The translations under genes and the position numbers were made by a program. The notes under the pieces were generated by a model. That model was not told the origin of the DNA. It did no database searches and saw only the letters and a list, made by a program, of their open reading frames with translations. 64,000 bases of DNA from Chloropicon primus (lineage: Eukaryota). The stretch's first letter is position 1, and each line of letters begins with the position of its first letter. Below, piece after piece: positions 16,218-27,794 of the stretch. The stretch covers positions 868,001 through 932,000 of the forward strand of contig CP060756.1 in assembly GCA_023205875.1 (NCBI GenBank), written 5' to 3'.

Positions 16218-18184
16218 GGTGATACCAAAAGATGACACCAAGATGACAACAAGGTGATACCAAAAGGTGATACCAAAAGATGACACCAAGATGACAACAA
16301 GGTGATACCAAAAGATGATACCAAGATGACAACAAGTTGACACCAAGGTGATACCAAGACGACAACAAGGTGATACCAAAAGATGATACCAAGATGACAA
16401 CAAGATGATACCAAGACGACAACAAGGTGATACCAAAAGATGATACCAAGATGACAACAAGGTGATACCAAAAGATGATACCAAGATGACAACAACGTGA
16501 TACCAAAAGATGATACCAAAATGACAACAAGTTGACAACAAGATGATACCAAGACGACAACAAGATGATACCAAGACGACAACAAGATGACAACAAGATG
16601 ATACCAAGACGACAACAAGATGATACCAAGACGACAACAAGATGATACCAAGACGACAACAAGATGATACCAAGACGACAACAAGATGACAACAAGGTGA
16701 TACCAAAAGATGATACCAAGATGACAACAACGTGATACCAAAAGATGATACCAAAATGACAACAAGTTGACAACAAGATGATACCAAGACGACAACAAGA
16801 TGATACCAAGACGACAACAAGATGACAACAAGATGATACCAAGACGACAACAAGATGACAACAAGATGATACCAAGACGACAACAAGACGACAACAAGAT
16901 GACAACAAGGTGATACCAAGACGACAACAAGGTGATACCAAAAGATGATACCAAGATGACAACAAGGTGATACCGAAAGGTGATACCAAGATGACAACAA
17001 CGTGATACCAAAAGATGATACCAAGATGACAACAAGGTGATACCGAAAGGTGATACCAAGATGACAACAACGTGATACCAAAAGATGATACCAAGATGAC
17101 AACAAGATCATACCAAGACGACAACAAGATGATACCAAGATGATACCAAGATGACAACAAGGTGATACCAAAAGATGATACCAAGATGACAACAAGATGA
17201 TACCAAAAGATGATACCAAGATGACAACAAGATGACAACAAGGTGATACCAAGACGACAACAAGATGATAACAAGACGACAACAAGATGACACCAAGGTG
17301 ATACCAAGACGACAACAAGGTGATACCAAAAGATGATACCAAGATGACAACAAGTTGACACCAAGGTGATACCAAGACGACAACAAGGTGATACCAAAAG
17401 ATGATACCAAGATGACAACAAGATGATACCAAGACGACAACAAGATGACAACAAGATGATACCAAGACGACAACAAGATGATACCAAGACGATACCAAGA
17501 TGATACCAAGACGACAACAAGATGACAACAAGGTGATACCAAGACGACAACAAGGTGATACCAAAAGATGATACCAAGATGACAACAAGGTGATACCGAA
17601 AGGTGATACCAAGATGACAACAACGTGATACCAAAAGATGATACCAAGATGACAACAAGGTGATACCGAAAGGTGATACCAAGATGACAACAAGTTGACA
17701 ACAAGGTGATACCAAAAGATGATACCAAGGTGACAACAAGTTGACAACAAGGTGATACCAAGACGACAACAAGATGACAACAAGGTGATACCAAAAGATG
17801 ATACCAAGACGACAACAAGATGACAACAAGATGACACCAAGACGACAACAAGATGATACCAAGACGACAACAAGATGACAACAAGGTGATACCAAAAGAT
17901 GATACCAAGATGACAACAAGGTGATACCAAAAGATGATACCAAGATGACACCAAGGTGATACCAAAAGATGATACCAAGACGACAACAAGACGACAACAA
18001 GGTGATACCAAAAGATGATACCAAGACGACAACAAGGTGATACCAAAAGATGATACCAAGATGACACCAAGGTGATACCAAAAGATGATACCAAGGTGAC
18101 AACAAGTTGACAACAAGGTGATACCAAGACGACAACAAGGTGATACCAAGATGACAACAAGGTGGGAACAAGGTGGGGCACAAG
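16218..18184. repeat. ~2-kb complex satellite of 11/13-bp monomers (GATGATACCAA, GATGACAACAA, GACGACAACAA, GGTGATACCAA(AA))
   Basis: Direct reading; variants shuffled into higher-order units; degenerates at the right end. Confidence 0.95.
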
Positions 18185-18438
18185 AAGTTGTACGGCCTTT
18201 GGATGAGGCGGCCACGGTTCAAAGATGATGCCGTACGTGTGCGAGCAGCGCCAACGGAAGTAGGACGAGGACTACTTGCGAGGAAGTCGATAACGGTGGC
18301 GGAGATCTTTCGACCCAAAGCTTATGGGGCGGAATACATATATTGTATTTTAAGGGAAACCTTCTGCCGTACCAGACTTTGTAGACTACAATGTACAGAC
18401 TCGTCACCACGTTGACGTTTGTAGAGCGTCCGTGTCAC

Positions 18439-19539
18439 TCAAAACCAGCGTCTGTAAAAGTCATGACTCGGCTTTGCCACCTCTAGTTTTGCACCGCTCG
18501 AGTTGCTTTCATGGGGCTTTTTCGCGATTTCCAGGTGGCACAGGACCACGTCGCCTTCGTTCACACGGACGCGAGGGTGAAACGCGAAACTTGCGTGACG
18601 GCAGCGAGTCCAATCGTCGCACGAGCGAGCGCAAGTACAGGTACATGGGTCGCAGTCCACCTCCACCAAGGCCGGGCTGGCCGGCGAGCCGTGGAACTGC
18701 ACCGAAAGCCATCCCGCGAGCAAGTTGATCTCGCCACTTTGCTCCGCGTTGAAACGGAAGTTGAGTCTCATACTGCGCACATCCTCCGAGGTCGCAGTGA
18801 GCAAGTCCATCGTCTTGACCAACTCGAAAGGCGCGACCAGCTCGGGAGACTCTATACGAACGTCGTACCTCTGCTGGTCTGCAAGGCCGTCGCTCGCACG
18901 CCCCCGCTTGCCCATGCCTCTCCTGCGTTTCGTCCTCTGCCCGTGCGACTCTTCTTCGTCGCAGACCTCCACCATTGGTTCCTCTGACTCAAACTCCGTC
19001 GAGGCCGAGGCAGCTGGAGCGAGGAACACCTTGCAGTGAGAAGGGTACATGGCTCCGTCGGATTTGAGGTACCTGTCTCTGGCGTTCAGAATCCTGTAGA
19101 TCTTGGAGTGTTGCAGCCAGACATCACCCGCCAAGTCGGACAAGATGATGTCCACCTTCCCTTGAATGTCCTCCTTCTTGGCTATGTTCTCGTCGTACAC
19201 AGTGACGGTATCACCACCTAATTTGGTAGCATGCACGAGCTGCATGAGCTGCCTGGTAAAGACTTCTTCTTTCGTATCTGGCATGATGTACACCTTCCTT
19301 GCCCCCGCTAAGGCGGCGAAGAAACCGAGCACTCCACAACCGACGTCCAAGACCACTTTCTCCTGAAAGAGAGAGTCATTAAAAAAGATAGCGTCTCCGT
19401 ACGCTTCTGGACAGCTCAAAACATCCAGTAGCGGAGCAAAGGTAACCCAGGTAGCGTAGGCCAGGAAGCCTTCGTTGTCCCACGGCAGAGGAGTGTCCCC
19501 TTCCAAGGGCGGTGTGCCTTCGTCTTCCGCCGCCACCAT
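18439..19539 (-). CDS. Divergent protein arginine methyltransferase (PRMT)-like SAM-dependent methyltransferase
   Basis: FQEKVVLDVGCG, FAALAGARKVY, KVDIILSD, ARDRYLKSDGAMYPS..KVFLAP, GWLSVQF; several catalytic positions altered. Confidence 0.7.
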   Translation of the reverse strand: MVAAEDEGTPPLEGDTPLPWDNEGFLAYATWVTFAPLLDVLSCPEAYGDAIFFNDSLFQEKVVLDVGCGVLGFFAALAGARKVYIMPDTKEEVFTRQLMQLVHATKLGGDTVTVYDENIAKKEDIQGKVDIILSDLAGDVWLQHSKIYRILNARDRYLKSDGAMYPSHCKVFLAPAASASTEFESEEPMVEVCDEEESHGQRTKRRRGMGKRGRASDGLADQQRYDVRIESPELVAPFELVKTMDLLTATSEDVRSMRLNFRFNAEQSGEINLLAGWLSVQFHGSPASPALVEVDCDPCTCTCARSCDDWTRCRHASFAFHPRVRVNEGDVVLCHLEIAKKPHESNSSGAKLEVAKPSHDFYRRWF

Positions 19540-26974: not shown

Positions 26975-27721
26975 TCTCGAGGGCCCTGCTATGTCGTCCA
27001 CCGTGATGCCTCGAGTCACAAAGTGGCAAAGTTGCAATGTGGTGTGATGTATGAAACCACAAGCGAAGTCCTTGGTATGATCTTTGCAACGTACGTGAAA
27101 AGGTCTCTCACCGTTTTAGGTTGCTCTTCGTGCTGCTTCCACTACGTCAGCCGTCCGCTTGTTCCGTCCGCTCTGTGGCTGATTGTGTTGACAACCGTGT
27201 CATCATGACATGGATTGCTCAGCGCCAGCGCCAGCGCCATAATCACAAGGACCACACGTGGGTCACGGCGGCTAGTGGACAGGGATTCAATTAAGGAAAA
27301 GGGCTTAAAGTTTGGCTACCATTCTGCGTTACTACATTGGCATTGCAACTAACGTGGATTACAACGTCGGAAGAACTTGTAAGGAATTAAGGAAAAGATA
27401 AAACCTTCACAACCGATAAAAAATAAGATAAGATACTTGGAATCCTCTCCAGCCGTCATTCCAAAGGGATGTCTTTAAACCAATAATTAATGACTTGGTT
27501 GAAGTTTCCAATTAATGCACCTAACAACAATAGAAGTTCCTTCCATTCTGCGTTACTTTAAAGATAAGAGAACTAAAGGTAGTAATTTGCGATTGCTTAT
27601 TTGCTCAAGAACATTTCTTTTTCCCTCTAAGGATTTTGACTCGAGACACTTTAGCATGATAGACTTTTACTCAACTCGGCGACTGAAGCGGAGCACCGAA
27701 GCCTGCTAGAGCAAAAAAAAA

Positions 27722-27794
27722 AGTCCACGGTGGGGATCGAACCCACGATCTTTCGCTTAGGAAGCGAACGCCTTATCCACTGGGCCACGCGGAC
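27722..27794 (-). tRNA. tRNA-Arg (anticodon CCU)
   Basis: GTCCGCG-TGGCCCAGTGGATAAGGC-G-TTCGC-TTCCTAA-GCGAA-AGATC-GTGGG-TTCGATC-CCCAC-CGTGGAC cloverleaf followed by a poly-T Pol III terminator. Confidence 0.95.

What the first reader, a model, noticed from the sequence alone, without database searches (positions are those of the whole stretch)
16218..27794. Atypical 11.5-kb island: satellite, PRMT-like gene, peptide cluster, RWP-RK, tRNA
Seen: visibly more AT-rich intergenic DNA, lower gene density and only divergent or orphan genes, in sharp contrast with the tightly packed housekeeping flanks. Established: RWP-RK factors (MID in volvocine algae, RKD in plants) control gamete identity. Inference: a polymorphic haplotype block that might couple a regulator with recognition peptides (mating or self/non-self), or a defence island. 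Physical linkage alone does not show functional coupling.
Basis: inference. Interest (0 to 1): 0.7.

Follow-up and report, generated by a model that had tools for sequence, protein, structure and literature searches.

The report
Picoalgal hypervariable peptide gene cluster
A tiny marine green alga carries repeated gene clusters for a family of precursor proteins with a fixed front end and a highly variable tail that is likely cut off and secreted as a membrane-attacking peptide, sitting next to a likely on-switch gene and likely peptide-modifying enzymes; it is not a sex-determining region.

Summary
The island is real (GC 0.48 vs 0.59) but is not a mating-type haplotype. It is Chloropicon primus DNA, in the same gene order in both published strains, and one of several copies (chr 1, 3, 13; relatives on 14, 16). 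Its core is four genes of an undescribed family: identical 5' leader with signal anchor, acidic beta pro-domain, Arg processing site (113 of 124), then a 42-71 aa hypervariable, Trp-rich, often amphipathic tail with an even cysteine count (109 of 110; 25 of 25 non-redundant). All four PRMT-like copies abut a precursor gene. In C. roscoffensis the same precursors cluster with RWP-RK (5 of 8 seen), PRMT, JmjC and copper-monooxygenase genes, so the linkage recurs across species. All six island genes are near-silent in culture. Leaders are homogenised by gene conversion; an inverted promoter repeat has flipped g3/g4 between copies. Best reading: an inducible cluster for secreted, processed peptides, most likely antimicrobial or anti-competitor (0.55); signalling is the main rival (0.22). 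No peptide or activity is shown. The local PRMT-like gene lacks canonical catalytic motifs.

The parts
16216..18154 (.). Satellite of 11/13-bp units at the left edge; role unknown
18439..19539 (-). Divergent PRMT-like gene (366 aa); SAM-binding Gly motif shortened, double-E loop D/H, THW loop lost; all 4 genomic copies per strain lie next to a precursor gene
19716..19962 (+). Half copy of the shared promoter plus 5' leader driving g1
19963..20565 (+). Precursor g1 (200 aa); predicted mature tail 20419-20562, 48 aa, 2 Cys, net -2
20836..21399 (-). Precursor g2 (187 aa); predicted mature tail 20839-20964, 42 aa, 2 Cys, net +6
21400..21811 (.). Bidirectional promoter with a TATA box on each side (g2 and g3); 21475-21798 is one arm of a 324-bp inverted repeat
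21812..22435 (+). Precursor g3 (207 aa); predicted tail 22262-22432, 57 aa, 4 Cys, internal Gly-Lys-Arg (predicted second cut and amidation site)
22737..23345 (-). Precursor g4 (202 aa); predicted tail 22740-22889, 50 aa, 2 Cys, internal Gly-Lys-Arg
23346..23674 (.). Inverted copy of the bidirectional promoter (11 mismatches in 324); drives g4, its outward half has no precursor gene behind it
23675..24922 (.). 1.2 kb without a recognised gene; unexplained
24923..26974 (-). RWP-RK protein, 683 aa; RWP-RK domain at residues 72-113 (about 26636-26761), then a twice-repeated domain found only in C. primus paralogues; public gene models start downstream of the RWP-RK domain
27722..27794 (-). tRNA-Arg(CCT) at the right edge; no duplicated piece of 10 nt or more in the island, so no att-like site
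14861..15967 (+). gpsA, left flank; a near-identical paralogue lies two genes from the chr13 copy of the cluster

Best explanation
The island is one copy of a multi-copy gene cluster whose four precursor genes share an identical leader and end in hypervariable tails that are predicted to be cut off in the secretory pathway and released as disulfide-bonded peptides, likely membrane-attacking weapons against bacteria, competitors or grazers, likely switched on by the adjacent RWP-RK factor. Steps. (1) Shown: silent in culture. Inferred: induced by RWP-RK through the shared bidirectional promoters, giving pairs of peptides together. (2) Predicted: the precursor inserts as a type II membrane protein (anchor at residues 29-47, sequon just after it); the acidic beta pro-domain shields the cationic tail. 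(3) Predicted: a Golgi subtilase cuts at the Lys-Arg or Arg-x-Leu site; g3 and g4 are cut again at Gly-Lys-Arg and amidated. (4) Inferred: cluster-encoded enzymes (JmjC, SET, copper monooxygenase in C. roscoffensis) decorate the tails; the role of the degenerate cytosolic PRMT-like protein here is open. (5) Shown: leaders are homogenised while tails diverge, and gene order is reshuffled at the inverted promoter repeat. Odds: processed secreted peptides about 0.9; cluster is a functional unit about 0.75; weapon function 0.55.
For: First 228 coding nt differ at 0-1 sites among g1-g4 with no synonymous change, while pro-domain pS is 0.31-0.58. Arg site in 113 of 124 proteins; 63 dibasic, 94 Arg-x-[LMVI], the motif of S1P/SBT6.1 (PMC13082318 passages). 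Even Cys count in 109 of 110 tails and 25 of 25 50%-identity representatives with a site (28 given). Sequon after the anchor in 95 of 120. Tails: Trp 5.3% vs 0.0% in pro, median charge +2 vs -6, hydrophobic moment above shuffle mean in 77%; predicted helical. 28 tail families on one leader. A distant relative (P0311) carries 8 repeated CxxC units each ending Gly-Arg, like a multi-copy prohormone. Residue differences in 10 close pairs: tail 116/492, pro 37/733, leader 16/760. Enzyme gene upstream in 4 of 5 metagenome loci with more than 1.2 kb flank: SET, JmjC, Cu monooxygenase, GT29, each with an N-terminal hydrophobic stretch; metal ligands of JmjC and the monooxygenase intact. C. roscoffensis RCC1871: 5 of 8 species-specific RWP-RK and 3 of 4 PRMT genes seen lie within 10 genes of a precursor. 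C. primus has an expressed PAM gene (depth 34.2). RNA-seq depth 0-0.14 for the six island genes vs 50.7, 18.2, 8.1 for neighbours.
Against: No peptide, cleavage product or activity has been observed. 30 of 110 tails are net acidic (<=-2) and only 29% have a moment z>2. No tail matched a bacteriocin or AMP family or a solved structure. A mussel family of the same design showed no antimicrobial or toxic activity (PMC4558851 abstract). Positive selection is only suggestive: 12 of 12 tail changes non-synonymous for g3 vs one contig (P=0.10), pN/pS about 1.9 in L003/L004 but about 0.4 in L006/L007. The window's PRMT-like protein lacks canonical catalytic motifs and a signal sequence, so it would not meet a lumenal tail. 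The RWP-RK partner is present on chr1 and chr3 only, not in the chr13 copy; a related RWP-RK gene on chr14 is about 100 genes from the chr14 precursors (inferred from accession numbers). The enrichment counts are post hoc and duplicated clusters are not independent.
Confidence: 0.55

Rival explanations
1. Same processing, but the peptides are signals (pheromones or kin-recognition ligands) of a hidden gamete or flagellate stage under RWP-RK control.
For: RWP-RK linkage in two species; silence in vegetative culture; amidation signals in g3/g4; an amidated peptide attracts and repels Chlamydomonas gametes (PMC6919629 abstract); a cryptic stage is proposed in PMC6731263 (passages) and PMC8245530 (passages).
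Against: Both strains carry the same repertoire; at least 28 unrelated tail families is more like an arsenal than a ligand set; no receptor gene seen in any cluster examined; Trp-rich cationic helices fit membrane activity.
Confidence: 0.22
2. The proteins stay anchored and form a variable surface coat or decoy against viruses or grazers.
For: Uncleaved signal anchor, variable lumenal tip, multi-copy low-GC islands; low-GC defence chromosomes are known in Mamiellales (PMC6731263 passage).
Against: A conserved Arg site exactly at the pro/tail border in 113 of 124, second sites in 20 tails, and a multi-core relative point to release.
Confidence: 0.1
3. The clusters are only AT-rich dumping grounds where silent, fast-evolving duplicated genes collect; the neighbours have no shared function.
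For: Satellite, degenerate PRMT, gpsA carried along to chr13, silence in culture; chr13 copy lacks the RWP-RK gene.
Against: The same gene classes recur beside precursors in two species at 78% ANI and on different chromosomes; all four precursor frames and enzyme active sites are intact. This rival concerns coupling, not the peptide family.
Confidence: 0.1
4. Mating-type (MID-like) haplotype block.
For: An RWP-RK gene in a repeat-bearing low-GC block; public models omit its RWP-RK domain, so it may have escaped the published MID search.
Against: Collinear in both strains, 95%-identical second copy on chr1, 683 aa with N-terminal RWP-RK; contig depths inside the island are not half the flank's (weak measure).
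Confidence: 0.03

Closest known systems
Animal prepro-peptide superfamilies (conotoxins, frog-skin AMPs, mussel MgCRP-I)
   Same: Conserved prepro region, basic processing site, hypervariable mature peptide, gene duplication (MgCRP-I: abstract; others recalled).
   Different: Uncleaved signal anchor plus a folded beta pro-domain, no fixed Cys framework, 0-2 disulfides, compact clusters with regulator and enzyme genes, unicellular alga; no sequence homology found.
Fungal Kex2-processed RiPP clusters (ustiloxin, epichloecyclin; KEPs)
   Same: Secretory-pathway precursor, kexin-type cut, clustered tailoring genes (search-listing abstracts PMC10540207, PMC7329392).
   Different: One long helical tail per precursor instead of short repeated cores (P0311 is the exception); JmjC, SET, Cu monooxygenase and PRMT instead of the fungal cyclising oxidases; many precursor genes per cluster.
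Plant S1P/SBT-processed peptides (RALF, SCOOP, GOLVEN)
   Same: RxLx/RxxL-type site before a roughly 50-aa disulfide-bearing peptide (passages).
   Different: No RALF Pfam hit, membrane-anchored precursor, unrelated tails.
Chlamydomonas proGATI / PAM peptidergic signalling
   Same: Green-algal propeptides, convertases and amidation (abstract); Gly-Lys-Arg sites in g3/g4.
   Different: No homologue of the precursors in Chlamydomonas or 12 other green algae in PMC6731263 Data 2 rows; multigene clustered family.
Class II bacteriocin loci
   Same: Helical Trp-rich or Gly/Ala-rich peptides behind a shared leader, in pairs, with regulator (resemblance recalled, not tested by structure).
   Different: No Pfam/NCBIfam bacteriocin hit; ER route, no double-glycine leader, ABC exporter or immunity gene recognised.
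Volvocine MID / mating-type locus
   Same: RWP-RK domain.
   Different: Size, domain order, copy number, no haplotype specificity.

Membership tests
MID / mating-type locus | RWP-RK domain | tested here: met
   PF02042 E 2.3e-12
MID / mating-type locus | Short protein with C-terminal RWP-RK (recalled) | tested here: not met
   683 aa, domain at 72-113, long repeated C-terminal domain
MID / mating-type locus | Single copy, limited to one haplotype | tested here: not met
   Copies on chr1 and chr3 in both strains; hemizygosity only weakly probed by contig depth
MID / mating-type locus | Phylogenetic grouping with MID | not tested
   No MID sequence fetched; Suppl. Fig. 4 is a picture
Type I PRMT | SAM-dependent fold with PRMT beta-barrel | tested here: met
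   Weak Pfam hits; 31-36% identity to PRMTs
Type I PRMT | Intact GxG motif I, double-E loop, THW loop | tested here: not met
   Two residues missing from motif I, E/E replaced by D/H, THW replaced (motif names recalled)
Prepro-peptide precursor | ER-targeting hydrophobic segment | tested here: met
   Kyte-Doolittle 2.48 at 29-47, continuous helix in model
Prepro-peptide precursor | Conserved basic site between pro and variable part | tested here: met
   113 of 124
Prepro-peptide precursor | Cleaved product detected | not testable with these tools
   Needs peptidomics
Eukaryotic RiPP cluster | Precursor genes clustered with modifying-enzyme genes | tested here: met
Eukaryotic RiPP cluster | Enzyme and core share a compartment | tested here: inconclusive
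   N-terminal hydrophobic stretch in SET, JmjC, Cu monooxygenase, GT29; the window's PRMT-like has none ahead of its catalytic domain
Eukaryotic RiPP cluster | Modification of the core by those enzymes | not testable with these tools
   Needs MS or in vitro assay
Antimicrobial peptide / bacteriocin | Cationic amphipathic helix | tested here: inconclusive
   62 of 110 at +2 or more, 30 at -2 or less; moment above shuffle in 77%
Antimicrobial peptide / bacteriocin | Homology to a known family | tested here: not met
Antimicrobial peptide / bacteriocin | Killing activity | not testable with these tools
   Needs bioassay
Programmed invertible switch (shufflon-like) | Inverted repeats flanking an invertible segment with both orientations in existence | tested here: met
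   324-bp repeat; chr13 copy has g4 before g3
Programmed invertible switch (shufflon-like) | Dedicated recombinase and both orientations at one locus | tested here: inconclusive
   No recombinase among island ORFs; only contigs, no raw reads
tRNA-integrated mobile element or provirus | att duplication, integrase or viral genes | tested here: not met

The most novel reading that the evidence does not exclude
Chloropicon, a dominant open-ocean picoalga, has bacterial-style peptide biosynthetic clusters: one conserved membrane-anchored leader delivers dozens of unrelated bacteriocin-like cores through the Golgi, cluster-encoded JmjC, SET and copper enzymes tailor them, and a cluster-specific RWP-RK factor turns the arsenal on. 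This would be an algal RiPP class and a route of peptide warfare among picophytoplankton.
Probability: 0.4. Interest if true: 0.88.

Novelty: new variant of a known kind. Interest (0 to 1): 0.74.

Why it matters
Chloropicophyceae are major open-ocean primary producers with little-known biology. A large, inducible, clustered peptide family gives a direct test of whether picoeukaryotes fight or signal with ribosomal peptides, points to the hidden condition or life stage that wakes these genes, offers a role for RWP-RK factors outside nitrate control and sex, and supplies a searchable leader that opens hundreds of natural peptide cores and new secretory-pathway tailoring enzymes.

Tried and rejected
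No whole genome was held, so other copies were read from locus tags and supplements, not DNA. Viral contigs: 34 pattern matches, none a relative. Prokaryote genomes: 1 locus, a 1.4-kb contig in a MAG, taken as likely mis-binned. L014 (23-residue match) was dropped as chance. Foldseek on the g3 model (pTM 0.31): nothing at E<=0.001; the wider structural search was never reached. The g3 tail model is low confidence (pLDDT 56) and was not searched. ESM Atlas: no usable hit for g3, no answer for the RWP-RK C-terminus. No RNA holder on record; two runs guessed to be RNA hold only the chr13-type g3 and a flank gene, a weak hint only. Runs X6, X7 laid nothing. A SET-like look of 18203-18415 and a retrotransposon look of 23700-24900 got no support. 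Open frames on the satellite's minus strand follow from stop-free units. No shared motif between the precursor, RWP-RK and PRMT upstream regions among four motifs counted. Satellite as centromere: untestable here. Three look-ups of earlier findings were empty. Literature: searches listed no description of this family; the 2025 genome paper's main text has no mention of JmjC, methyltransferase or RWP. Subscription papers are not covered. Data 2 of the 2019 paper is cut before chr13, so expression and neighbours of the chr13, 14 and 16 clusters were not seen.
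Full report
Observation. The block is real. GC is 0.484 (0.502 without the satellite) against 0.594 in the flanks, and no equal-sized window outside falls below 0.570. It holds a 1.9-kb satellite, a PRMT-like ORF, four paralogous ORFs g1-g4, an RWP-RK ORF and tRNA-Arg. Named relatives place it on Chloropicon primus chromosome 3.

Not a haplotype. Both published strains have gpsA, PRMT, four hypothetical genes and the RWP-RK C-terminal model in the same order (PMC6731263 Suppl. Data 2 rows; PMC12301720 File S1). The 2025 paper reports full collinearity (sections 6 and 12). 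The 2019 paper found no MID orthologue among nine RWP-RK genes (passages); the public models of this gene start after the RWP-RK domain, so it may not have been among them, and I could not see the figure. The protein is 683 aa and has a 95%-identical partner on chr1.

A multi-copy module. Orthogroups put g1, g2, g3 and g4 each on chr 1, 3 and 13; further relatives lie on chr 14 and 16. All four PRMT-like copies per strain have the locus tag next to a precursor. On chr13 the order is PRMT, g1, g2, g4, g3. A contig in runs X3 and X4 joins the sequence that here flanks g4's promoter to a g3 whose changes match the chr13 protein P0144. This is the product expected from inversion at the 324-bp inverted promoter repeat. 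It shows past reshuffling between copies, not live switching.

The four genes. They share TATA box, 5' leader and the first 76 codons, with 0-1 differences in 228 nt and no synonymous change, while the next 70 or so codons have pS 0.31-0.58: gene conversion of the front end (inference). The protein is a short basic N-terminus, a hydrophobic anchor (29-47), a sequon (95 of 120 relatives), a beta-rich acidic domain, an Arg site and a helical tail. The family has 255 clusters at 90% identity among 388 candidates (120 listed) and 71 representatives at 50%; every taxon-named member is Chloropicon. No Pfam, NCBIfam or PDB family fits. Of 124 proteins (120 listed plus four), 113 show the site; the 11 misses include five truncated and two N-terminally extended entries. 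63 sites are dibasic and 94 read Arg-x-[LMVI], the motif of site-1-type subtilases (PMC13082318 passages), so the protease is open. The 110 tails of 25 aa or more are 42-71 aa and fall into 28 single-linkage families; 109 have an even Cys count, as do 25 of 25 non-redundant representatives (28 given, 3 without a site), which points to disulfides and a lumenal location. Twenty tails have a second basic site, including Gly-Lys-Arg in g3 and g4, the classic amidation signal (recalled); C. primus expresses a PAM gene. A distant relative, P0311, has eight CxxC units each ending Gly-Arg.

Selection. Close pairs differ at 23.6% of tail, 5.0% of pro and 2.1% of leader residues (10 non-independent pairs). 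DNA tests are mixed: 12 of 12 tail changes non-synonymous for g3 against one contig (P=0.10), pN 0.229 vs pS 0.119 in L003/L004, but 0.119 vs 0.281 in L006/L007.

Neighbours. Of 14 metagenome loci one was dropped as chance and five have over 1.2 kb upstream. Four of these five carry a modifying-enzyme gene there: SET (L002), JmjC/cupin (L005), copper monooxygenase (L013), GT29 (L008); L009 has none. Each has an N-terminal hydrophobic stretch, and the JmjC and copper ligands are present. In C. roscoffensis RCC1871 the precursors lie in clusters on chr 5, 7 and 9 (I equate the two tag prefixes by number and infer one tag from its accession). File S2 lists, inside or beside them, RWP-RK genes (two on chr5, two on chr7, one on chr9), PRMT genes, many JmjC genes, a methyltransferase and a Cu monooxygenase. 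Five of 8 species-specific RWP-RK genes seen (25 of 28 hits read) and 3 of 4 PRMT genes are within 10 genes of a precursor, a zone of about 1% of genes; these counts are post hoc and inflated by duplication. Against: the chr13 copy has no RWP-RK partner, the chr14 RWP-RK relative is about 100 genes from its precursors, and I did not show that the C. roscoffensis RWP-RK or PRMT genes are orthologues of the window's; they are in separate orthogroups. The window's PRMT-like protein has lost the canonical catalytic motifs and may be a pseudo-enzyme or have a new substrate.

Expression. Average RNA-seq depth in culture is 0, 0.14, 0.14, 0, 0, 0 for the island genes and 50.7, 18.2, 8.1 for neighbours; the chr1 copies are 0-1.9 apart from one unrelated gene at 46. 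The module is co-silent; its trigger is unknown.

How it works. Most likely an inducible cluster that makes secreted, processed peptides. I favour a weapon role (0.55) because many unrelated, Trp-rich, mostly cationic helical tails coexist in one genome and both strains share the set. Signalling in a hidden sexual stage is the main rival (0.22; PMC6919629 abstract). A mussel family of like design had no antimicrobial effect (PMC4558851 abstract), a warning that design does not prove activity.

Novelty. Seven searches of the held library (listings only) showed no description, and the genome papers list the genes as hypothetical. The parts have precedents in animal prepro-peptides, fungal RiPP clusters and plant S1P substrates; the anchored leader family and its clustering with RWP-RK and tailoring genes in a green alga appear undescribed. 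Papers seen: PMC6731263 passages and supplements 11, 14, 16 (parts); PMC12301720 abstract, sections 6, 12, passages, supplement parts 2, 9 and searches; PMC8245530 and PMC13082318 passages; PMC6919629 and PMC4558851 abstracts; others as search listings.

Noticed in passing
window 12664-13187: 36-bp coding-like tandem repeat (13.5 copies) at the end of the TFIIS/SPOC ORF 10914-13364.
   Followed up: no
window 24923-26974: Public gene models of this RWP-RK gene (401 aa; chr1 copy 427 aa) omit the RWP-RK domain, so published RWP-RK counts for C. primus may be too low.
   Followed up: partly
window 14861-15967: gpsA has a near-identical copy beside the chr13 cluster, but on the opposite side of the precursor block.
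   Followed up: partly
window 16216-18154: Satellite built from a few 11/13-bp units in irregular higher-order blocks; centromere or insulator role untested.
   Followed up: partly
window 18203-18415: 70-codon ORF at the satellite edge that looks by eye like the start of a SET domain; no Pfam support.
   Followed up: partly
window 24444-24923: Possible in-frame splice from the end of the RWP-RK ORF to an open stretch below 24746; no transcript evidence.
   Followed up: no
window 58845-62456: A second, milder GC dip (0.49-0.53) over a WD40 gene.
   Followed up: no
window 43105-44079 and 47707-48969: Peptidase C69 and a methyltransferase gene elsewhere in the window: modifying enzymes are not rare, which tempers the neighbour statistics.
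   Followed up: partly
L008 6166-6700: Short helix-turn-helix-like stretch resembling RWP-RK just upstream of a precursor; no Pfam hit.
   Followed up: partly
P0311, P0314, P0319, P0321, P0323, P0324: Distant unnamed proteins with the same anchor region: one multi-core precursor, several Cys-rich tails, and EF-hand fusions; the leader may be a wider algal module.
   Followed up: partly
PMC6731263 Data 2 rows: Four more PRMT1-like genes on chr 1 and 2 also have zero RNA depth in culture.
   Followed up: no
L015: A family member on a 1.4-kb contig in a Myxococcales MAG, probably mis-binned algal DNA.
   Followed up: no
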